Assembly (NCBI GenBank): GCA_027021195.1
Contig: JALUUW010000003.1
Span: 4,843-68,842, forward strand
Length of the DNA: 64,000 bases
Direction of reading: 5' to 3'
DNA from: Candidatus Pacearchaeota archaeon
Lineage (GTDB): Archaea > Nanobdellota > Nanobdellia > Pacearchaeales > GW2011-AR1
Of the stretch, positions 1 to 7,672 are shown piece by piece. How positions within the stretch are numbered: the first letter of the stretch is position 1; each line of letters starts with the position of its first letter. Below the pieces are notes generated by a model. That model was given only the letters and a program-made list of their open reading frames with translations, made no database searches and was not told the origin of the DNA. A program made the translations under genes and the position numbers.

Positions 1-587
1 CTGAAACTATTGAACCTGGGAAGATAGAAATCGCTATCTTTAATGATTTGAAAGAGTTTACAAAAAAATATGAATTTGAAAATAATAAATCTCTTCCTTT
101 TTTTGTTGTAGGATTTGCTGGAAAGAACGGCAGAATTTTTATCTTGGATAAAAAACTTTTTCCAAAACAAGGACACAGAGAAGAAGAATTTGAAAGAGTC
201 GTTGTTCATGAATTATGCCATGTATTTATCAGGAGAATGCTACACCCCAAACATACTTTCATTTGGATAGAGGAAGGGCTATGTGAATTTTTGTCTTTTG
301 GAGATTATCCTTTAAAAATAAAAAAAATAGTGGATTTTAGAGAGATTGAAACTTCTGAAGGATGGAGAAAGCATAATGCCTATCAACAAGCAAAAGGTTT
401 TTTTAAATATTTATCTAAAAATTATGGGGATAAAAAAATAGTGGAATTTATTAAAAAAATTAAAGTTACTTCTGAGAGAAAGGCATTTAAAGAGGTGTTT
501 GGAAAAGAAATAAATGAAATCCAAGAAAAGTTCTTTAACACCTTGAAAAATGAAAAAACTCTATCATCCGGGAATTCCTTGCAATGA
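1..587 (+). CDS. HExxH metallopeptidase-like protein (5' partial)
   Basis: The frame is open from nt 3 to the window edge, and the track start at 48 is a TTG. Motifs VVHELCHVF and downstream IEEGLCE fit a gluzincin-like HExxH+E. Overlaps the next gene by 38 nt. Confidence 0.5.
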   Translation, partial: ETIEPGKIEIAIFNDLKEFTKKYEFENNKSLPFFVVGFAGKNGRIFILDKKLFPKQGHREEEFERVVVHELCHVFIRRMLHPKHTFIWIEEGLCEFLSFGDYPLKIKKIVDFREIETSEGWRKHNAYQQAKGFFKYLSKNYGDKKIVEFIKKIKVTSERKAFKEVFGKEINEIQEKFFNTLKNEKTLSSGNSLQ

Positions 588-1716
588 GAATATAGTTCAA
601 AAAGATTTAGAAAAGAGTCTTATTAATTTTAGAAATAAGCGTATAGAGATTGTTGAATGTAATGAAGGGTTTGGAGTTTTTGATAAAGACTGGTTTTGGG
701 CAACAAAAGAAGAGTTAGATTCTCTTAAGAAATGCCCAGATATCTCAATAAGGTATTTTTTAGATAATGAAAAGTTCAATCATGAAGGATGGTTTTTTTA
801 TAACCCAATAGAACTTGGTATAGAATTAACAAGAGAATGTAATCAGCTGTGTATTCATTGTTGGAATGAATCTTCTTCAAGGGATACTAAAATGCCTTTG
901 AAGAAGGCAAAAGAAATTATTCAGGAATTTAGAAAAGGAGGAGGACAGAAAATAAAGATATCTGGTGGAGAACCATTATCATATTCTTCTTTAGATGAAT
1001 TTTTATTTTTTTCAAAAGAAGTTGGGATAAAAAAAGTAGATATGACATCTAATGGAGTGTTAATGAATAGGGAAAAAGCAAAATTTTTATCTACTCATCT
1101 AACAAATATATGTATAAGTATTCATGGTTCTAAATCAGATATACATGACGATATAACTTACAATAAAGGAAGTTTTGTAAAATCTATTAAAGCAATAGAG
1201 CATCTTCAGGAAGAAGGGTTAAACCCCATAATTAATTATACTGTTATGCAGAAAAACAAAAAGGACATTGCAGACATGATTGAATTAGGGAAAATTCTTA
1301 ATGTTAACGGGATAAAATTCAGTTGTTTAAAAAAGATTGGAAGAGCGAGAAATTTAGAGGTAATTTCTAAAGAAGAGGTAAATACATTAAGAAATTTAAT
1401 ATATACTAAATCGAAAGAGCTTGGAATTGAGTTAGAGAAGAGTGAATTGTATCCTGCAGGATATGTTCAAGGCATTAGTCAATCAAAATTTTATGGATGT
1501 AATGGATTAAGAACCCAACTATATATCTCTTCAGAAGGCAACGTTTACCCATGTAGTTTAATAAATGAAAGTATTGGAAACATTTACCAAGATTCTTTAT
1601 TTAATTTATGGAGAAGTAAAAAAGCTCAGGAATTTAGAAGATTGGATAATTGTATTAAAAATGATTGCAAAATAATTAGGGATTGTGGGAGAAAGTGTAG
1701 GGCAAGTTTGAAGTAA
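550..1716 (+). CDS. radical SAM / SPASM-domain enzyme (peptide-maturase-like)
   Basis: CNQLCIHC (CX3CX2C), SGGEPL, and a C-terminal Cys cluster: GCNG..YISSEGNVYPCS..CIKNDCKIIRDCGRKC. There is a ~95-aa N-terminal extension before the cluster motif. Confidence 0.85.
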   Translation: MKKLYHPGIPCNENIVQKDLEKSLINFRNKRIEIVECNEGFGVFDKDWFWATKEELDSLKKCPDISIRYFLDNEKFNHEGWFFYNPIELGIELTRECNQLCIHCWNESSSRDTKMPLKKAKEIIQEFRKGGGQKIKISGGEPLSYSSLDEFLFFSKEVGIKKVDMTSNGVLMNREKAKFLSTHLTNICISIHGSKSDIHDDITYNKGSFVKSIKAIEHLQEEGLNPIINYTVMQKNKKDIADMIELGKILNVNGIKFSCLKKIGRARNLEVISKEEVNTLRNLIYTKSKELGIELEKSELYPAGYVQGISQSKFYGCNGLRTQLYISSEGNVYPCSLINESIGNIYQDSLFNLWRSKKAQEFRRLDNCIKNDCKIIRDCGRKCRASLK

Positions 1717-1793: not shown

Positions 1794-2372
1794 ATGGAAG
1801 GTTATGAGAATATAAAATTTGTTAAAGCTGATATCAATTCCTTACCCTTTGACTCAGAAACGTTTGACGTTGTCATAGTAGGAAATGTCTTCTCTTTGAT
1901 AGAAAATAAAAAAATTGCATTAAAGGAATGCATGCGTGTTTCTAAAAAAAATGGATTTATTATTGTAATCCCTATGTATTACATAAAAGAACCTTCGAAG
2001 GAACTTATAAAGAGAGTTTCCAAAGCCCTTAAAGTCGACATTGCTCCTATGTATCGATCAGATTGGATAAATTTCTTCTCAATATCTGGATTAGAAATAT
2101 ATTGGTCAAAAGATTTCAAATTTGACCACATAGACAATAAAAAAATAATTTCCTTTTGTGAGGAGATTTTTAATAAAGAACATTTACGAAACTTGACTAA
2201 ATCGGCATATGAGAAACTATTTGAAGTTTATCAGAAATTTATGTTTCTATTTCGCGATAATTTATCTCATATGGGATATATCATACTTATTTTATCTAAA
2301 AGAAAGTTGTGGGAAGATCCAGAACTCTTTACATCCAGAGAAAATATCTCCCTTGGAAACTTTAGTCAATAG
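1794..2372 (+). CDS. class I SAM-methyltransferase, N-terminally truncated (motif I missing); possible pseudogene
   Basis: Starts at the post-motif-I region (KFVKADINSLPFDSETFDVVIVGNVF, KNGFIIV). No GxGxG motif is present. An in-frame TAA lies 5 codons upstream, and only 77 nt separate it from the previous gene. Confidence 0.5.
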   Translation: MEGYENIKFVKADINSLPFDSETFDVVIVGNVFSLIENKKIALKECMRVSKKNGFIIVIPMYYIKEPSKELIKRVSKALKVDIAPMYRSDWINFFSISGLEIYWSKDFKFDHIDNKKIISFCEEIFNKEHLRNLTKSAYEKLFEVYQKFMFLFRDNLSHMGYIILILSKRKLWEDPELFTSRENISLGNFSQ

Positions 2373-2390
2373 AATAAAATATGGTAATTC

Positions 2391-3416
2391 TTATTTGATT
2401 CCTTTTTCTAAGAACTCAAAATTGTTTGTTTCTGAGTCAATTACAACTTTTGTACCAATAGGGATAGTTAGCTGAGGATCGGTATGACCTATATCCACTC
2501 CAAACAAAATGGGAAAATTATATTCTTTTGTTCTCTCCAGTAACTTCTTTTTTAGCATTTCTATATCTTCTTCATTATATCTAAAAGGTCTGCCAAAAAT
2601 TAGCCCTCTGATTTGTTTAAATACTCCTAAAATGTTTAACTGCTCCAGATACCAGTCAACATAAGGAAGGGGTTCCCCTTCATCAAATGTCTGACCTTCT
2701 GGCAATTCTAAAAATAGAATCTTATCTGTATGATCTGGCCAGTATTTTGTACCTGGCAAATGGACTATTGATGTGAGACATCCTCCTATAATTTTACCTT
2801 CTGCTTTTCCTCCTCGCAACCATTCAAAACCTTTATTTTCTTTCAATTTTCTTGGCCTTGTAAGATCCAACTTTTTACTCCAATCTAAGAATTCATCAGT
2901 CCAGCTTTCAGAAGGAGATACTTTTCCTATGGGTTCATCTGATGCTACTGCCTTATTAAAATAATCTAAAGTATATTTAAGAGGATGAGGGTATTCTCCA
3001 AATTGAGTTATAATACATGGTCCATAAAAAGTTATAAGATTGGATTGCGTATGGAGTGCATAGTGCAAGATAGAGATATCTGAATAACCACAGAATATCT
3101 TTGGATTTTGTTTTATTTTCTCAAAATCTAAATAATTTAGAGTATGGGTTGCTACTGTTCCTCCAATTAAAGATATAATTGCTTTTATATCTTTGTCAAG
3201 AAAAGCGTCCATTATGTCTTTAGCCCTTTCTTCTGCAGGAGCAGATTCCCATCCGTTAACTTTTCTTGCTGTAGGAAACTCTTTAATTTTATAACCCTCA
3301 GATTTTAGAAATTTAACCGCATTGTCAAGTCTATGGGGAAAGTTCAATCCAGACGATGGAGCGATTATTGCTATTGTATCTCCTTTTCCAAGTCGTGGAG
3401 GCTTAATTAGTTCCAT
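2391..3416 (-). CDS. S66 family LD-carboxypeptidase / MccF-like serine peptidase
   Basis: GDTIAIIAPSSG, GYSDISIL (nucleophile Ser context) and DIGHTDP (His). Size is 341 aa. Confidence 0.8.
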   Translation of the reverse strand: MELIKPPRLGKGDTIAIIAPSSGLNFPHRLDNAVKFLKSEGYKIKEFPTARKVNGWESAPAEERAKDIMDAFLDKDIKAIISLIGGTVATHTLNYLDFEKIKQNPKIFCGYSDISILHYALHTQSNLITFYGPCIITQFGEYPHPLKYTLDYFNKAVASDEPIGKVSPSESWTDEFLDWSKKLDLTRPRKLKENKGFEWLRGGKAEGKIIGGCLTSIVHLPGTKYWPDHTDKILFLELPEGQTFDEGEPLPYVDWYLEQLNILGVFKQIRGLIFGRPFRYNEEDIEMLKKKLLERTKEYNFPILFGVDIGHTDPQLTIPIGTKVVIDSETNNFEFLEKGIK

Positions 3417-3862: not shown

Positions 3863-4531
3863 TTATATCTTAATTCTTTTAACATATTCTATACATTCAT
3901 TAATTAGAGGAATTATATCTGGATTATGCTTCCACGTTTCCATTACTCTCTTTCTTAATTCTTTATGTTCAGCATAGCCTTTATCTTCAACAAACCATAG
4001 ATCTCTACACTCTAAATTTAAGATTGCAGTTAAAGACTCATTAACATACTCTATTTCTCTAAACCCTAGCTGATTTCTAATTAAAGGCAAATGTGTTTTT
4101 TCCATCTGTAAATGCATTAATTCATGTCCACATGTTCTTAAATTTTGCAACAGAGGTCTTCGAATTGAGACCATGAAAGAATCCTCCTCCACATTATAAG
4201 GACATCTTCCAGCAGTTGTAATATATGCATTAAATTCATTTGAATATATTTTGTGTTTGGTAATTTTTTCTAACCTTTCAAAAAACCTGTTATTTATTTT
4301 TCCCCAAGAGTTCTGCAATGTTTCTAAAAAGATGTCTAAATGGCCTGAAGAATATAATGGTTGAATATACTGTTCAATCTCTTCCCTACATTCTTCAAAT
4401 TTTCTATTTTTCCACCTCTGTAGGACTGACCCTCTTTCTAATTCATTCTCCCATGGATGCTCGTAGTTGCTAGTTTCCCATATATTCCAAAGGTCTTTTT
4501 CCTTATCAAACTTAAAAATTACTTTTGACAT
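3863..4531 (-). CDS. HExxH-motif protein (putative Zn peptidase)
   Basis: CGHELMHLQ motif. Lies 16 nt downstream of the methyltransferase gene. Confidence 0.5.
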   Translation of the reverse strand: MSKVIFKFDKEKDLWNIWETSNYEHPWENELERGSVLQRWKNRKFEECREEIEQYIQPLYSSGHLDIFLETLQNSWGKINNRFFERLEKITKHKIYSNEFNAYITTAGRCPYNVEEDSFMVSIRRPLLQNLRTCGHELMHLQMEKTHLPLIRNQLGFREIEYVNESLTAILNLECRDLWFVEDKGYAEHKELRKRVMETWKHNPDIIPLINECIEYVKRIKI

Positions 4532-4547: not shown

Positions 4548-5072
4548 TTAAGCTTTTTGTTTATTTTTTAATAGTAATAAAATAACATTATGTTTATGGG
4601 GGGGCAAATTATCATGCTCTTCAATGGGGGTCTCATACATTCCTTCCTTCATTATTTCCCAATCAGAATATAGGTTTTTTAATTGTTTTAATGAAGGATA
4701 AAACCTATTTTGTGCATTTCTTGCCATAGGGTCTTTATCTGAAAAACAGATGATAAAAGTATGTCCTTGCTCAGAGGTATGTGTTTGTATCTTTTTTAAA
4801 ATATTTTGTGCAGTTACCTTATCTAAAAAATGCAAAACTAACGAAGCAATTATTAAGTCATATTTCTCTTTGAATTCAAAATTTGTTATATCTTCATTAA
4901 AGAATTTAAAATTTTTCTGGGAGATTTCCATAGGTCTTTTATCTACTCCAAGAACTTTTACGCCTTGTTTGGCAAATCTGAGAGATTTATGCCCTTTCCC
5001 ACAACCCAGATCCAAAACATTTTGAGGCTGTAGTTCTTTAAGATATTCTTTGACTTTATCCCTTATTATCAT
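4548..5072 (-). CDS. class I SAM-dependent methyltransferase
   Basis: VLDLGCGKGHKSLRFAKQGVKVLGVD (motif I plus acidic loop) and DLIIASLVLHFL. Confidence 0.8.
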   Translation of the reverse strand: MIIRDKVKEYLKELQPQNVLDLGCGKGHKSLRFAKQGVKVLGVDKRPMEISQKNFKFFNEDITNFEFKEKYDLIIASLVLHFLDKVTAQNILKKIQTHTSEQGHTFIICFSDKDPMARNAQNRFYPSLKQLKNLYSDWEIMKEGMYETPIEEHDNLPPHKHNVILLLLKNKQKA

Positions 5073-5108: not shown

Positions 5109-6170
5109 CTAATCTTGTGAGCTTCCCTGCACATATTCTTTAAAACACATAGGGTCTTTGGCCATATAATCTCCTGTTACTGCATAAGCAATTGCCCTAC
5201 ATCCTCTGCAGTGCACCACTTTATCACAAAGAGTATTCTCCCTCATTTTATTCAAATCTCTTAAATTTTGCATTACCTTGTTCTCTAAAATTAAATTACC
5301 TATTCCGTCACTTATGCGACCTATTTTAATAGGAAGTCTTCTACAAGGATAAACAGTTCCGTCCGATAATATTGAAAGCATTCTAAATCCTGCAGAACAC
5401 CCCCAAAGATATTTATTTTGCTCCTTTGCTGTTTTTATTACTTCGTTTTCTTTTTCCAATATTTGCCAAAGAACATCAGATTGAAGGACATTAATCTTAT
5501 CTCTATATTTTTCATTTAGTCTTTCAGTTTCTTTAACCATCTCGTAGATTTCTTTAGCATTAATAAATTCAGGATCTTTAATTCCTAAGTTTGAATCTGG
5601 ATTATAAGTTTTAAAACCCACTTTTTTAGCTCCTGCTAAAATTGCATTTTGGATAACATCCTCAAACTCTTTTTTATTAGACTGCATAAGAGTCATGGCT
5701 ACTGTAACATTTAAGCCTTCTTTTGAAGCATTTCTTATCCCTTCAATTGCCATATCATATGCAAAATCTTTTCTCCTAATTTTATTATGTGTGCGCTTAG
5801 ATCCATCAAGAGAAACTTGTATTGCTTCAACTTTTTGCTCCAAAAGTTCTCTAGCTTTTTTAGGAGTAATTAATGTGCCATTAGTTAACAAATTTGTTAT
5901 AACTTTTTTCTTACAAGCATATTCTAAAATTTCAAGATGATCTTCCCTCATTAAAGGATCTCCTCCCGAAATTGCGATTCTGGGTATCATCTCCCACCTT
6001 TTTGCTGTCTCTGCTAAATCATCTATCATTGATTTTACTTCATTTAAACTCATTAAATTATCATCTTGGATGTGGTCTACATTCCCTTCGTTGTTATGAT
6101 AACAATGGGAGCATTTAAGATTACAATCATTTGTGGAATCCCCTTGAATATATAAGTGTCTTTTAGCCAT
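5109..6170 (-). CDS. radical SAM / SPASM-domain enzyme (peptide-maturase-like)
   Basis: CNLKCSHC (CX3CX2C) at residues ~16-23, SGGDPL, and a C-terminal WGCSAG..LSDGTVYPCRR..CDKVVHCRGCRA..DPMC (SPASM-type auxiliary cluster cysteines). Confidence 0.85.
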   Translation of the reverse strand: MAKRHLYIQGDSTNDCNLKCSHCYHNNEGNVDHIQDDNLMSLNEVKSMIDDLAETAKRWEMIPRIAISGGDPLMREDHLEILEYACKKKVITNLLTNGTLITPKKARELLEQKVEAIQVSLDGSKRTHNKIRRKDFAYDMAIEGIRNASKEGLNVTVAMTLMQSNKKEFEDVIQNAILAGAKKVGFKTYNPDSNLGIKDPEFINAKEIYEMVKETERLNEKYRDKINVLQSDVLWQILEKENEVIKTAKEQNKYLWGCSAGFRMLSILSDGTVYPCRRLPIKIGRISDGIGNLILENKVMQNLRDLNKMRENTLCDKVVHCRGCRAIAYAVTGDYMAKDPMCFKEYVQGSSQD

Positions 6171-6212: not shown

Positions 6213-6338
6213 TTATTCTAAAGAATAGACATCATCTGCGTAACATGCATCTGGACCACAAGCATCGCAAGGGTCACAGTGATAACGATCTTTCTCTTGA
6301 GACGCTTTATTAGTTATATAAGAACTAATATCTAACAT
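6213..6338 (-). CDS. 41-aa Cys/Asp-rich peptide, candidate RiPP precursor (not in ORF track)
   Basis: Hand translation gives MLDISSYITNKASQEKDRYHCDPCDACGPDACYADDVYSLE*. It has an ATG start and a TAA stop, lies 42 nt upstream of the rSAM gene on the same strand, and has a TATA-like box ~80 nt upstream. Confidence 0.5.
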   Translation of the reverse strand: MLDISSYITNKASQEKDRYHCDPCDACGPDACYADDVYSLE

Positions 6339-6416
6339 ACCCTTAAGAAAAGCTTGTTCCTCAGCAGTTCTCTCCAGTTTATTTGTTTTTGCTATAAAAA
6401 GCCAACAACCTTAATA

Positions 6417-6424
6417 TATTTAAA
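6417..6424 (-). promoter_or_regulatory. TATA-box-like element (TTTAAATA on minus strand) upstream of the peptide/rSAM operon
   Basis: The plus strand reads tatttaaa, which matches the archaeal TATA consensus TTTAWATA. It sits 79 nt upstream of the peptide ATG. Confidence 0.35.
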
Positions 6425-7564: not shown

Positions 7565-7672
7565 TTTCTTTTCCTCCTAATTTAGTTAACTATAATATAT
7601 AATTACTTTATATAAACTATTCTATTGGATAATTTTACAAAAAAGAAATATTTATATATTGGTACTTATTTT

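What the first reader, a model, noticed from the sequence alone, without database searches (positions are those of the whole stretch)
6213..6338. Unannotated 41-aa ORF with a C-terminal C/D-rich core (CDPCDACGPDACYADD)
Seen in sequence: hand translation of the minus strand gives MLDISSYITNKASQEKDRYH-CDPCDACGPDACYADDVYSLE. The ORF has an ATG and a TAA, and at 41 aa it is too short for the 60-aa ORF track. It carries four Cys and six Asp within 16 residues. CxxxD spacing occurs at C21-D25 and C32-D36, and CxxD spacing at C27-D30 and C32-D35.

Established knowledge: the ranthipeptide maturase PapB makes Cys-S to Asp-C-beta thioethers at CX3D motifs (freyrasin).

Inference: the N-terminal 20 residues would be a leader and the Cys/Asp block a core for thioether formation. 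The reading frame is open for 24 more codons upstream but contains no ATG, GTG or TTG, so the 41-aa form is the most conservative call.
Basis: partly seen in the sequence, partly recalled or inferred. Interest (0 to 1): 0.75.

Follow-up and report, generated by a model that had tools for sequence, protein, structure and literature searches.

The report
Archaeal radical-SAM peptide precursor gene
The small Cys/Asp-rich reading frame is a real, conserved gene: the substrate peptide of a previously undescribed peptide-modification cassette (radical-SAM enzyme plus methyltransferase) found in DPANN archaea. In this genome its normal start codon has mutated from ATG to ATA.

Summary
The 41-aa ORF is at 6338..6213(-) exactly as described, apart from one miscount: the 16-residue block has 5 Asp, not 6. 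It lies 42 nt upstream of a radical-SAM/SPASM gene, followed by a TehB-like methyltransferase and an HExxH protein.

In 68 of 71 related loci from Pacearchaeota/Woesearchaeota genomes and metagenomes, a small Cys-rich ORF sits just upstream of the orthologous rSAM. These ORFs share a leader (M..LE…E..FL.SM) and an invariant C-x2-C-x2-C(G) core. No Pfam or NCBIfam model and no paper describes them.

Relatives start 19 codons upstream, and a TATA box lies at -29 of that position, which is this genome's leaderless-mRNA geometry. In the window that codon is ATA (6395).

The best reading is a RiPP-type precursor, probably thioether-cross-linked and methylated. The PapB-like Cys-to-Asp chemistry is possible, because CX3[D/N] is enriched. 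It is unproven: the enzyme scores far below the PapB, ACGX and SCIFF cut-offs, and Asp is conserved only within subfamilies. A ferredoxin-like metal-binding role is a live rival.

The parts
6417..6424 (-). Archaeal TATA-box-like element TTTAAATA, preceded by the A-rich stretch ATAAAA. It ends 21 nt before codon 6395.
   Evidence: Read directly. The same box with the same 21-nt spacing precedes the ATG of the homologous genes in L004, L005, L006, L021 and L036. Within the window, a codon 29 nt after the start of a TATA-like box that opens a frame of at least 40 codons is ATG in 15 cases. At offsets 28 and 30 the count is 3 each.
6213..6395 (-). Full-length precursor frame of 60 codons plus stop: (I)AKTNKLERTAEEQAFLKGMLDISSYITNKASQEKDRYHCDPCDACGPDACYADDVYSLE. 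The ancestral start position holds ATA (6395..6393) instead of ATG.
   Evidence: It aligns end to end with the called 62-aa gene of L018 (MGKVNQLELTVNEQAFLGSMLDIGPY…HCDPCDACGPDACYSDDVYFLN) and the 68-aa gene of L021. The same sequence is present in a separately deposited public contig, L017.
6213..6338 (-). The 41-aa ATG-initiated ORF of the finding. Its Met is the conserved Met of the leader motif FL.SM.
   Evidence: In L003, L031 and L032 an in-frame stop in the leader leaves an ORF that starts at this same Met.
6243..6278 (-). Core motif C21-D-P-C24-D-A-C27-G-P-D-A-C32. C21, C24 and C27 are invariant in the family, and G28 is present in 43 of 51 sequences.
5109..6170 (-). Radical-SAM/SPASM enzyme of 353 aa, the presumed maturase. 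It has CX3CX2C at C16/C20/C23, six invariant C-terminal Cys and no N-terminal extra domain.
   Evidence: Pfam PF04055 scores 87.5 bits and PF13186 29.3 bits, both above their cut-offs. Invariant residues are listed. The AF2 model has pLDDT 88.6. Its best structural matches are SkfB, PqqE, SuiB, TigE and anSME. The best PDB sequence match is CteB, E=6e-14.
4548..5072 (-). Class-I SAM-dependent methyltransferase of 174 aa, TehB-like. It is a conserved partner of the rSAM.
   Evidence: Pfam TehB scores 71.7 bits. It sits directly downstream of the rSAM in nearly all loci that have room for it.
3863..4531 (-). 222-aa HExxH protein, a putative zinc metallopeptidase and candidate leader peptidase. 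It is specific to the window's precursor subfamily.
   Evidence: H136, E137, H140 and E165 are invariant in 10 homologues. Two of the 10 members give weak SprT-like Pfam hits, best E=4.9e-4. It follows the methyltransferase in most subfamily-A loci only. The peptidase function is inferred, not shown.

Best explanation
The ORF is the precursor (substrate) peptide gene of an uncharacterised RiPP-type cassette. So far the cassette is seen only in DPANN archaea (Pacearchaeota/Woesearchaeota).

The cassette is one operon:
- the precursor;
- a compact radical-SAM/SPASM enzyme without an RRE domain;
- a TehB-like SAM methyltransferase;
- in this subfamily, an HExxH protein.

The precursor has a conserved leader (M..LE…TA.E..FL.SM) and a C-terminal core built on C-x2-C-x2-C-G.

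Inferred mechanism:
1. The rSAM enzyme binds the peptide, with a core Cys thiolate at an auxiliary Fe-S cluster.
2. It abstracts a hydrogen from a nearby core residue and forms intramolecular thioether bridge(s). An Asp or Asn three or four residues downstream of a Cys is the most likely acceptor in this subfamily.
3. The methyltransferase then methylates the product, at a thiol or a carboxylate.
4. The HExxH protein removes the leader.

In this genome the gene is normally transcribed as a leaderless mRNA starting at about 6395. The start codon there has become ATA. The peptide is therefore made inefficiently from ATA, made as the 41-aa short-leader form from ATG 6338, or not made at all.

Step-wise confidence:
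- real conserved peptide gene functionally tied to the rSAM and methyltransferase: about 0.9;
- the peptide is the covalently modified substrate: about 0.65;
- the modification is a thioether: about 0.45;
- the thioether is specifically Cys-to-Asp at the beta-carbon, as in PapB: about 0.2.
For: Shown:
- The ORF and its sequence.
- The rSAM/SPASM, methyltransferase and HExxH genes follow on the same strand, separated by gaps of 42, 36 and 16 nt.
- A homologous Cys-rich small ORF lies within 63 nt upstream of the orthologous rSAM (43-77% identical), and 150 nt upstream in one locus. This holds for 68 of 71 loci. It is absent upstream of a different rSAM family that is 31-34% identical.
- The alignment shows a conserved leader motif and invariant C-x2-C-x2-C.
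- The core is under purifying selection against L018: 7 synonymous and 4 non-synonymous codon changes in the last 24 codons.
- The methyltransferase is adjacent in nearly all loci, and the HExxH protein in most subfamily-A loci.
- The TATA box sits at -29 of the start codon in relatives and of the ATA in the window.
- The rSAM's nearest solved relatives by sequence are the thioether-forming peptide maturases CteB and SkfB. By predicted fold they are SkfB, PqqE, SuiB, TigE and anSME, nearly all peptide- or protein-modifying enzymes.
- Cys followed by Asp at +4 occurs 63 times, against 26.6±4.3 in shuffled cores.

From the literature:
- PapB makes Cys-to-Asp/Glu thioethers at CX3D/E and tolerates Cys-Xn-Asp with n=0-6 (PMC9413430).
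Against: - No expression or mass-spectrometry data exist, so the chemistry is inferred only.
- The rSAM is far below the curated cut-off of every named NCBIfam family: ACGX 171.8 against 400, NirJ2 170.2 against 500, PapB 94.8 against 340.
- No acceptor residue is conserved across the whole family.
- The +4 Asp enrichment is not corrected for phylogeny. It is also entangled with the C-x2-C periodicity.
- The conserved cassette holds no transporter or immunity gene.
- The cores of subfamilies B and C are unusually conserved for an antimicrobial RiPP.
- The window copy lacks a canonical start at the conserved position. Leader-disrupting lesions (a stop or frameshifts) also occur in L002, L016, L003/L031/L032, L050 and L060 while the rSAM stays intact.
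- The HExxH protein has no confident family or fold assignment.
Confidence: 0.62

Rival explanations
1. Metal- or Fe-S-binding micro-protein rather than a covalently modified substrate. The invariant C-x2-C-x2-C heptad plus a fourth Cys would ligate a [4Fe-4S] cluster or another metal centre. The peptide would then serve as a cluster or electron carrier, a scaffold, or a small subunit for the rSAM enzyme.
For: The only invariant residues are the three Cys of C-x2-C-x2-C. This is the ferredoxin [4Fe-4S]-binding heptapeptide (PMC3320576, PMC9059760). Subfamily B cores (YTCVSGCSECISCGGN) have the same C-x3-C-x2-C-x2-C-G-G spacing as the synthetic ferredoxin maquette KLCEGGCIACGACGGW (PMC6374738, PMC10946529). 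The cassette has no exporter. The B and C cores are highly conserved.
Against: - The strict linkage to a peptide-maturase-like rSAM/SPASM, a methyltransferase and, in places, an HExxH protein is typical of post-translational tailoring.
- The layout of a conserved N-terminal leader and a variable C-terminal tail is that of a RiPP precursor.
- The fourth-Cys spacing (2,2,4) differs from the ferredoxin CxxCxxCxxxCP.
- Some members lack the fourth Cys (L030, L003).
Confidence: 0.13
2. Precursor of a peptide-derived cofactor or small intracellular metabolite, in the manner of PQQ or mycofactocin, rather than a secreted bioactive peptide. The rSAM, methyltransferase and peptidase would carve a small modified fragment out of the conserved core.
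For: - The conserved cassette has no transporter or immunity gene.
- It is widely retained in small DPANN genomes: at least 480 metagenome stretches encode a relative of the rSAM.
- Cores are near-invariant within subfamilies B and C.
- A Tyr two residues before the first core Cys is common, in 21 of 51 sequences.
- The rSAM resembles PqqE and the mycofactocin maturase about as much as it resembles thioether formers.
- Sister cassettes add DUF3419 and APH-like kinase genes.
Against: The core differs strongly between subfamilies A, B, C and D, which is unusual for a cofactor. No cofactor-dependent enzyme is linked to the cassette. One MAG carries two loci (L005 and L009).
Confidence: 0.1
3. In this particular genome the gene is a recent pseudogene or is silent. 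The ATG-to-ATA change abolishes initiation on the leaderless mRNA, and the 41-aa ORF is not productively translated or processed.
For: - ATA sits exactly where relatives have ATG, and where this genome's promoter geometry puts start codons.
- The 41-aa form lacks the conserved LE..E..FL leader segment.
- No well-placed Shine-Dalgarno sequence precedes ATG 6338.
- About six independent leader lesions are seen in other loci, so precursor decay recurs.
- The gene caller skipped the ORF in L017.
Against: - The core and all downstream genes are intact.
- The 19 upstream codons are still open. They are about as similar to L018 (11 of 20 residues) as L018 is to L021 (12 of 20), so there has been no accelerated decay.
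- The L003 group also begins at the same internal Met.
- At least one rSAM maturase can modify peptides independently of a leader (PMC12715619, title and abstract only).
- A sequencing error cannot be excluded, although two deposited assemblies agree.
Confidence: 0.3
4. One reading: a PapB-family ranthipeptide (freyrasin-like), with Cys sulfur linked to the Asp beta-carbon at CX3D motifs.
For: The window core has two CX3D and two CX2D pairs. Cys followed by Asp at +4 is enriched family-wide, and every major subfamily has a CX3[D/N]. PapB accepts Cys-Xn-Asp/Glu with n=0-6 (PMC9413430).
Against: - The PapB model scores 94.8 bits against a cut-off of 340. Eleven other rSAM families score higher.
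- There is no RRE-type N-terminal domain.
- Asp positions are not conserved across subfamilies. For example, position -2 relative to the third invariant Cys is Asp in subfamily A, Val or Ile in B and Asn in C.
- The precursor has 2 such motifs rather than the six repeats of PapA.
- An obligatory methyltransferase is not part of the PapA/PapB substrate-enzyme pair as described in PMC9413430.
Confidence: 0.2
5. Chance ORF in AT-rich intergenic DNA, or a regulatory upstream ORF or RNA element for the rSAM gene.
For: The ORF is short, it was not called by the gene finder in L017, and the genome is about 33% G+C.
Against: Amino-acid-level conservation extends across rSAM orthologues that are only 43-77% identical, with synonymous substitutions in the core. 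A profile search returns only 54-79-aa proteins of the same kind. The region has no Rfam match.
Confidence: 0.02

Closest known systems
SCIFF peptides and their maturase CteB/ScfB (ranthipeptides of Clostridia)
   Same: Both are short Cys-rich precursors encoded directly upstream of a radical-SAM/SPASM enzyme. CteB is the best PDB sequence match of the window rSAM (5wgg, E=6e-14). From my own knowledge, SCIFF is also widely conserved in its lineage without a dedicated exporter.
   Different: - The window enzyme is about 100 residues shorter and has no N-terminal RRE domain.
- No SCIFF precursor model matches any of the 38 precursors.
- The core motif is C-x2-C-x2-C-G.
- An adjacent methyltransferase is nearly universal.
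- The host lineage is DPANN archaea.
PapA/PapB (freyrasin), Cys-to-Asp beta-carbon thioethers at CX3D
   Same: The core is rich in Cys and Asp with CX3D spacing, and the maturase is of the rSAM/SPASM type (PMC9413430).
   Different: The PapB model scores 94.8 bits against a cut-off of 340. There are two motifs rather than six. Asp is not conserved family-wide. The leader is different.
ACGX system radical-SAM/SPASM protein (NCBIfam TIGR04340)
   Same: It is the best-scoring NCBIfam model for the rSAM (171.8 bits, E=2e-50). The window core contains one 'ACGP' unit.
   Different: The score is far below the cut-off of 400 and essentially tied with NirJ2 (170.2). The precursors match no NCBIfam model and do not carry tandem ACGX repeats. 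No paper on that system could be found.
Sactipeptide-type thioether maturases such as SkfB
   Same: SkfB is the top structural match of the predicted fold (6efn, E=5e-16, TM 0.65) and the second-best PDB sequence match. It is a Cys-donor thioether-forming peptide maturase.
   Different: SkfB is about 21% identical. It has a different precursor and a different auxiliary domain architecture.
Ferredoxin CxxCxxC [4Fe-4S] motif and the synthetic ferredoxin maquette KLCEGGCIACGACGGW
   Same: The Cys spacing is identical: C-x2-C-x2-C family-wide, and C-x3-C-x2-C-x2-C-G-G in subfamily B.
   Different: Those are cluster-binding sites of unmodified proteins or synthetic peptides. Here the peptide is genetically tied to tailoring enzymes. 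Cluster binding has not been tested.

Membership tests
Radical SAM / SPASM superfamily (the enzyme next to the ORF) | Pfam PF04055 and PF13186 above their gathering scores, and a CX3CX2C cluster motif | tested here: met
   PF04055 scores 87.5 bits against a cut-off of 29.5, and PF13186 scores 29.3 against 21.5. C16, C20 and C23 are invariant, as are six C-terminal Cys.
RiPP precursor peptide (generic) | A small gene adjacent to and co-oriented with its tailoring enzyme across many genomes | tested here: met
   68 of 71 loci have it upstream, within 63 nt in all but one locus (150 nt).
RiPP precursor peptide (generic) | A conserved N-terminal leader and a more variable C-terminal core | tested here: met
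   The leader is M..LE…E..FL.SM. The cores fall into subfamilies A to D around C-x2-C-x2-C-G.
RiPP precursor peptide (generic) | The peptide is covalently modified and the leader is removed | not testable with these tools
   This needs mass spectrometry of the native or heterologous product.
PapB-family ranthipeptide (NCBIfam NF047865) | The maturase scores at or above the curated cut-off of 340 bits | tested here: not met
   It scores 94.8 bits.
PapB-family ranthipeptide (NCBIfam NF047865) | The precursor carries repeated Cys-X3-Asp/Glu motifs (six in PapA; PMC9413430) | tested here: inconclusive
   The window core has two CX3D pairs. CX3D is enriched across the family, but the Asp positions are subfamily-specific.
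PapB-family ranthipeptide (NCBIfam NF047865) | A thioether between Cys sulfur and the Asp beta-carbon | not testable with these tools
   This needs MS/MS or NMR.
PapB-family ranthipeptide (NCBIfam NF047865) | A leader-binding RRE domain in the maturase, as expected for PapB (PMC9413430) | tested here: not met
   The rSAM cluster motif starts at residue 16. The AF2 model shows strand 1 at residues 5-11 and no N-terminal domain.
ACGX system (TIGR04340 rSAM plus ACGX-repeat peptide) | The rSAM scores at or above the cut-off of 400 bits | tested here: not met
   It scores 171.8 bits.
ACGX system (TIGR04340 rSAM plus ACGX-repeat peptide) | The precursor carries tandem ACGX repeats (recalled from the family description, not read here) | tested here: not met
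   There is a single ACGP unit. None of 38 precursors matches any NCBIfam peptide model at E<=1.
SCIFF / ScfB-CteB ranthipeptide system | The precursor or the maturase matches the curated SCIFF or ScfB models | tested here: not met
   No SCIFF-type model appears among the precursor hits. The ScfB-related model NF040492 scores 75 bits against a cut-off of 855.
Heme synthase AhbD / NirJ2 (the name some sources give to homologues) | A score at or above the equivalog cut-off of 500 bits | tested here: not met
   AhbD scores 153.5 bits and NirJ2 170.2 bits. The JGI label 'AdoMet-dependent heme synthase' on homologues is therefore not supported.

The most novel reading that the evidence does not exclude
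These DPANN peptides are natural minimal ferredoxin-like or metal-binding peptides, or precursors of a peptide-derived redox cofactor. The invariant C-x2-C-x2-C(G) heptad would bind an Fe-S cluster or metal. The rSAM and methyltransferase would lock or tune that site rather than make an antibiotic-type RiPP. This would be a roughly 20-residue natural counterpart of the synthetic ferredoxin maquette, conserved in genome-reduced symbiotic archaea.
Probability: 0.12. Interest if true: 0.85.

Novelty: new variant of a known kind. Interest (0 to 1): 0.55.

Why it matters
The paper on archaeal RiPPs read here (PMC12144867) reports lanthipeptides as the only experimentally validated archaeal RiPP products. 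rSAM-type clusters in DPANN appear there only as antiSMASH counts.

This cassette is compact, at three or four genes. It is abundant: at least 480 metagenome stretches encode a relative of the enzyme. It also has a clearly alignable precursor family that no Pfam or NCBIfam model covers.

It is therefore a well-defined, directly testable entry point into peptide chemistry in Pacearchaeota and Woesearchaeota, organisms with very small genomes and presumed symbiotic lifestyles. The enzyme lacks an RRE yet faces a conserved leader, which raises a recognition question. The ferredoxin-like Cys spacing raises the possibility of a metal-binding product.

For annotation, the result shows two things. 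Homologues named 'AdoMet-dependent heme synthase' are probably misnamed. The precursor is also missed by gene callers when its start codon is non-canonical.

Tried and rejected
- A word-indexed search with the 41-aa peptide alone found nothing. Only the profile of locus-derived precursors worked.
- An exact-sequence look-up of the window-derived rSAM sequence found nothing on record. A look-up with the database copy P0001 (100% identity) worked.
- NCBIfam, Pfam and PADLOC scans of the peptide and of 38 precursors gave only noise.
- A single-sequence AlphaFold model of the HExxH protein was unusable (pLDDT 38.6), so no fold search was run on it.
- A profile search of the HExxH family against the PDB gave nothing significant.
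- The bacterial-type promoter and terminator scan is uninformative for an archaeon. It was replaced by my own TATA-box offset analysis.
- Rfam has no match in the region.
- Literature searches for 'ACGX' with 'radical SAM', DPANN/Woesearchaeota/Pacearchaeota with ranthipeptide or radical SAM, and archaeal SPASM precursors found no description of this system.
- The S66 peptidase, the 71-aa ORF, the 194-aa ORF and the Lrp-like regulator were considered as cassette members. They were rejected because they are not syntenic elsewhere.
Full report
**1. Observation**

The minus strand of 6338..6213 translates to MLDISSYITNKASQEKDRYHCDPCDACGPDACYADDVYSLE*. The start is ATG and the stop is TAA. The four Cys are C21, C24, C27 and C32. 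The CX3D pairs (C21-D25, C32-D36) and CX2D pairs (C27-D30, C32-D35) are as stated.

The 16-residue block has five Asp, not six. The frame is open for 24 further codons upstream with no ATG, GTG or TTG. This is the only in-ORF C..C..CG peptide in the six frames of the window.

**2. Surroundings**

Several genes follow on the same strand:
- After a 42-nt gap comes a 353-aa radical-SAM/SPASM protein at 6170..5109. Pfam PF04055 and PF13186 score above their cut-offs, and the CX3CX2C motif is at C16/C20/C23.
- Next is a 174-aa TehB-like class-I methyltransferase at 5072..4548.
- Next is a 222-aa protein with an HExxH motif and no Pfam or NCBIfam family at 4531..3863.
- A 71-aa ORF and an S66 LD-carboxypeptidase follow.

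No NCBIfam equivalog claims the rSAM. The best scores are the ACGX-system rSAM (171.8 bits, cut-off 400), NirJ2 (170.2, cut-off 500), AhbD (153.5, cut-off 500) and, lower down, PapB (94.8, cut-off 340).

The best PDB sequence matches are the thioether-forming peptide maturases CteB (E=6e-14) and SkfB. An AlphaFold model built on 29 homologues has pLDDT 88.6. It best matches SkfB, PqqE, SuiB, BlsE, TigE and anSME, nearly all of which modify peptides or proteins. The protein has no N-terminal domain ahead of the rSAM core.

**3. Comparative evidence**

Homologues of the rSAM that are 50-77% identical are numerous. Those that carry names come from Pacearchaeota, Woesearchaeota or Nanoarchaeota. 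I fetched 16 loci from species-representative genomes, 80 from metagenomes out of at least 480 confirmed stretches, and the contigs of the three closest proteins.

In 68 of the 71 loci with an rSAM at least 43% identical, a Cys-rich small ORF lies upstream of the rSAM, within 63 nt in all but one locus (150 nt). Loci of a different rSAM family (31-34% identical) have none. Some of these loci are the same contig retrieved from two collections.

The closest relatives carry called genes of 62 and 68 aa:
- L018: MGKVNQLELTVNEQAFLGSMLDIGPYTASKNGETPKKDSSHCDPCDACGPDACYSDDVYFLN
- L021: …KDKYHCDPCEACGPDACYSDNSGFLN

The alignment of 52 precursors (subsets A2 and A3) shows:
- an N-terminal M..LE;
- a leader motif (T/S)A.E..(F/Y/L)L.SM;
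- an invariant C-x2-C-x2-C, followed by Gly in 43 of 51 sequences.

The cores fall into subfamilies:
- A: KYGCDPCDACGP(D/S).C…, which includes the window;
- B: EGYTCVSGC..C.SCGGNDY;
- C: Y.C.TCNNCGSGDC.SCC..SDD;
- a few others.

Against L018, the last 24 codons differ by 7 synonymous and 4 non-synonymous codons. The ORF is therefore a real gene under selection and a member of a sizeable family.

A profile search of 5.8 billion proteins returned 22 members. All are unnamed or 'hypothetical' and none has a Pfam domain. An exhaustive HMMER search of 1.84 billion cluster representatives returned 35 hits, all 54-79 aa long. None of 38 precursors matches any NCBIfam or Pfam model meaningfully.

**4. 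The gene is longer than the 41-aa call**

The conserved leader motif of the window peptide (…KTNKLERTAEEQAFLKG-M…) lies in the 19 codons upstream of ATG 6338. It aligns residue for residue with the N-termini of L018, L021 and L001. Where they have ATG, the window has ATA at 6395..6393.

A TATA-box-like TTTAAATA at 6424..6417 ends exactly 21 nt before that ATA. The same box at the same spacing precedes the ATG of the homologues in L004, L005, L006, L021 and L036.

Inside the window, a codon 29 nt after the start of a TATA-like box that opens a frame of at least 40 codons is ATG in 15 cases. At offsets 28 and 30 the count is 3 each. This genome therefore uses leaderless mRNAs with that geometry, and the precursor's designed start is 6395.

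A separately deposited public contig carries the same ATA (L017). No gene was called there.

The upstream 19 codons show no accelerated decay. Eleven of 20 residues are identical to L018, against 12 of 20 between L018 and L021.

What happens in this organism is open. The possibilities are weak initiation at ATA, use of ATG 6338 to give the 41-aa short-leader form, or silencing.

Leader lesions recur elsewhere while the rSAM stays intact:
- L003, L031 and L032 have an in-frame TAG, and the ORF resumes at the very same conserved Met.
- L002 and L016 have different indels.
- L050 and L060 have frameshifts.

It affects only a minority of loci, and in most of them only the leader; in L003/L031/L032 the fourth core Cys is also replaced by Tyr.

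**5. Cassette composition**

The methyltransferase directly follows the rSAM in nearly all loci that extend far enough. The HExxH protein follows the methyltransferase in most subfamily-A loci only.

Ten HExxH homologues share invariant H136, E137, H140 and E165. Two of them give weak SprT-like zinc-protease hits. A leader-peptidase role is a reasonable inference, nothing more.

The S66 peptidase, the 71-aa and 194-aa ORFs and the Lrp-type regulator are not syntenic elsewhere. No transporter or immunity gene is conserved. Subfamily-B cassettes add a DUF3419 protein and an APH-like kinase.

**6. Mechanism**

Shown: there is a conserved peptide with a leader and core, genetically locked to a peptide-maturase-like rSAM/SPASM enzyme and a SAM methyltransferase.

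Inferred: the rSAM cross-links the core through Cys sulfur, forming a thioether. The methyltransferase adds a methyl group. The HExxH protein trims the leader.

- Cys followed by Asp at +4 occurs 63 times, against 26.6±4.3 in shuffled cores.
- Every major subfamily keeps a CX3[D/N]. In subfamily A it is the first invariant Cys to Asp. In B and C it is the third invariant Cys to Asp or Asn.
- PapB is known to link Cys to Asp/Glu at CX3D/E and to tolerate n=0-6 (PMC9413430).

The support is limited. The statistic is not corrected for phylogeny and is entangled with the C-x2-C period. The Asp positions differ between subfamilies. The enzyme is not a PapB-family member by the curated threshold.

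A serious rival is metal or Fe-S binding. C-x2-C-x2-C is the ferredoxin cluster heptapeptide (PMC3320576, PMC9059760). Subfamily B reproduces the spacing of the ferredoxin maquette KLCEGGCIACGACGGW (PMC6374738, PMC10946529).

A peptide-derived cofactor is a further possibility, given the lack of an exporter and the conserved cores.

**7. Comparison with known systems, and novelty**

The system works most like the SCIFF/CteB and PapA/PapB ranthipeptide systems and like sactipeptide maturases. It fails the membership thresholds of all of them, and those of the ACGX system and of the AhbD/NirJ2 heme enzymes. The label 'AdoMet-dependent heme synthase' that some sources give to homologues is therefore not supported.

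No paper in the searchable library describes it. The archaeal RiPP survey PMC12144867 only counts antiSMASH rSAM-RiPP clusters in archaea, and its experimental work is on lanthipeptides.

I rate it a new variant of a known kind. It is an rSAM/SPASM RiPP-type system with its own precursor family, an obligatory methyltransferase, no RRE, and a restriction to DPANN archaea.

**8. Verdict**

Interest is 0.55. This is a clean, testable and undescribed archaeal peptide-modification system, but it belongs to a class that genome mining turns up regularly.

Noticed in passing
window 550..1716 (+), with 48..587 (+) and 1794..2372 (+): A second radical-SAM/SPASM gene (388 aa, only about 27% identical to the first) has a roughly 90-residue N-terminal extension. 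It is preceded by a 179-aa ORF with a weak HExxH/flagellinolysin-like hit and followed by another methyltransferase. This may be a second peptide-modification cassette. Its precursor, if any, may lie off the window's edge.
   Followed up: no
window 2391..3416 (-): An S66 LD-carboxypeptidase (the MccF/LdcA family) lies just downstream of the cassette in a DPANN archaeon. It is not syntenic with the cassette in any other locus, so it is probably unrelated. It is still an odd enzyme for such an organism.
   Followed up: partly
window-wide, e.g. 18214, 29146, 37842, 41538 (+); 10967, 15601, 28043, 49543, 60974 (-): This genome has a strikingly fixed promoter geometry. A TATA-like box starts exactly 29 nt before the ATG of 15 ORFs, which implies mostly leaderless mRNAs.
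   Followed up: partly
L003/L031/L032, L002, L016, L050, L060 (leader regions upstream of the rSAM): Independent in-frame stop or frameshift lesions occur in the leader part of the precursor gene while the rSAM stays intact. The L003 group also has the fourth core Cys replaced by Tyr. The cause could be decay, assembly error at homopolymers, or use of an internal start.
   Followed up: partly
L008 7584..8462 and 8455..9192; likewise L006, L010, L005: Subfamily-B cassettes carry two more co-oriented, overlapping genes after the methyltransferase. One is a DUF3419 protein (described from memory as the BtaA-like SAM-dependent transferase family). The other is an APH-like kinase. This suggests more elaborate tailoring in sister systems.
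   Followed up: partly
window 8690..10177 (-); L002 8300..8740: A 495-aa, extremely Cys-rich protein with an N-terminal hydrophobic segment lies near the cassette. A 32%-identical relative lies a few kb from the cassette in L002.
   Followed up: no
window 7625..8668 (+): A 347-aa protein with two Lrp/AsnC-type HTH modules lies upstream of the cassette region on the opposite strand. It is not conserved next to the cassette elsewhere, apart from a weak hit in L010.
   Followed up: no
L012 11119..12096 (-); L014 2007..2825 (-): Some loci carry a second, distant rSAM/SPASM gene (about 28% identical) within a few kb of the cassette.
   Followed up: no
window 61025 (+): There is one other case of an ATA codon exactly 29 nt after the start of a TATA-like box that opens a 98-codon frame. 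It is probably chance, because it lies antisense to called ORFs. It is worth a look if ATA initiation is ever suspected in this organism.
   Followed up: no
L069 3335..3871 (+): In a divergent locus (rSAM 50% identical) the gene directly after the rSAM is a different 178-aa protein that also carries HExxH (VHELIH). It has no Pfam match. Unrelated-looking HExxH proteins may have been recruited repeatedly.
   Followed up: no
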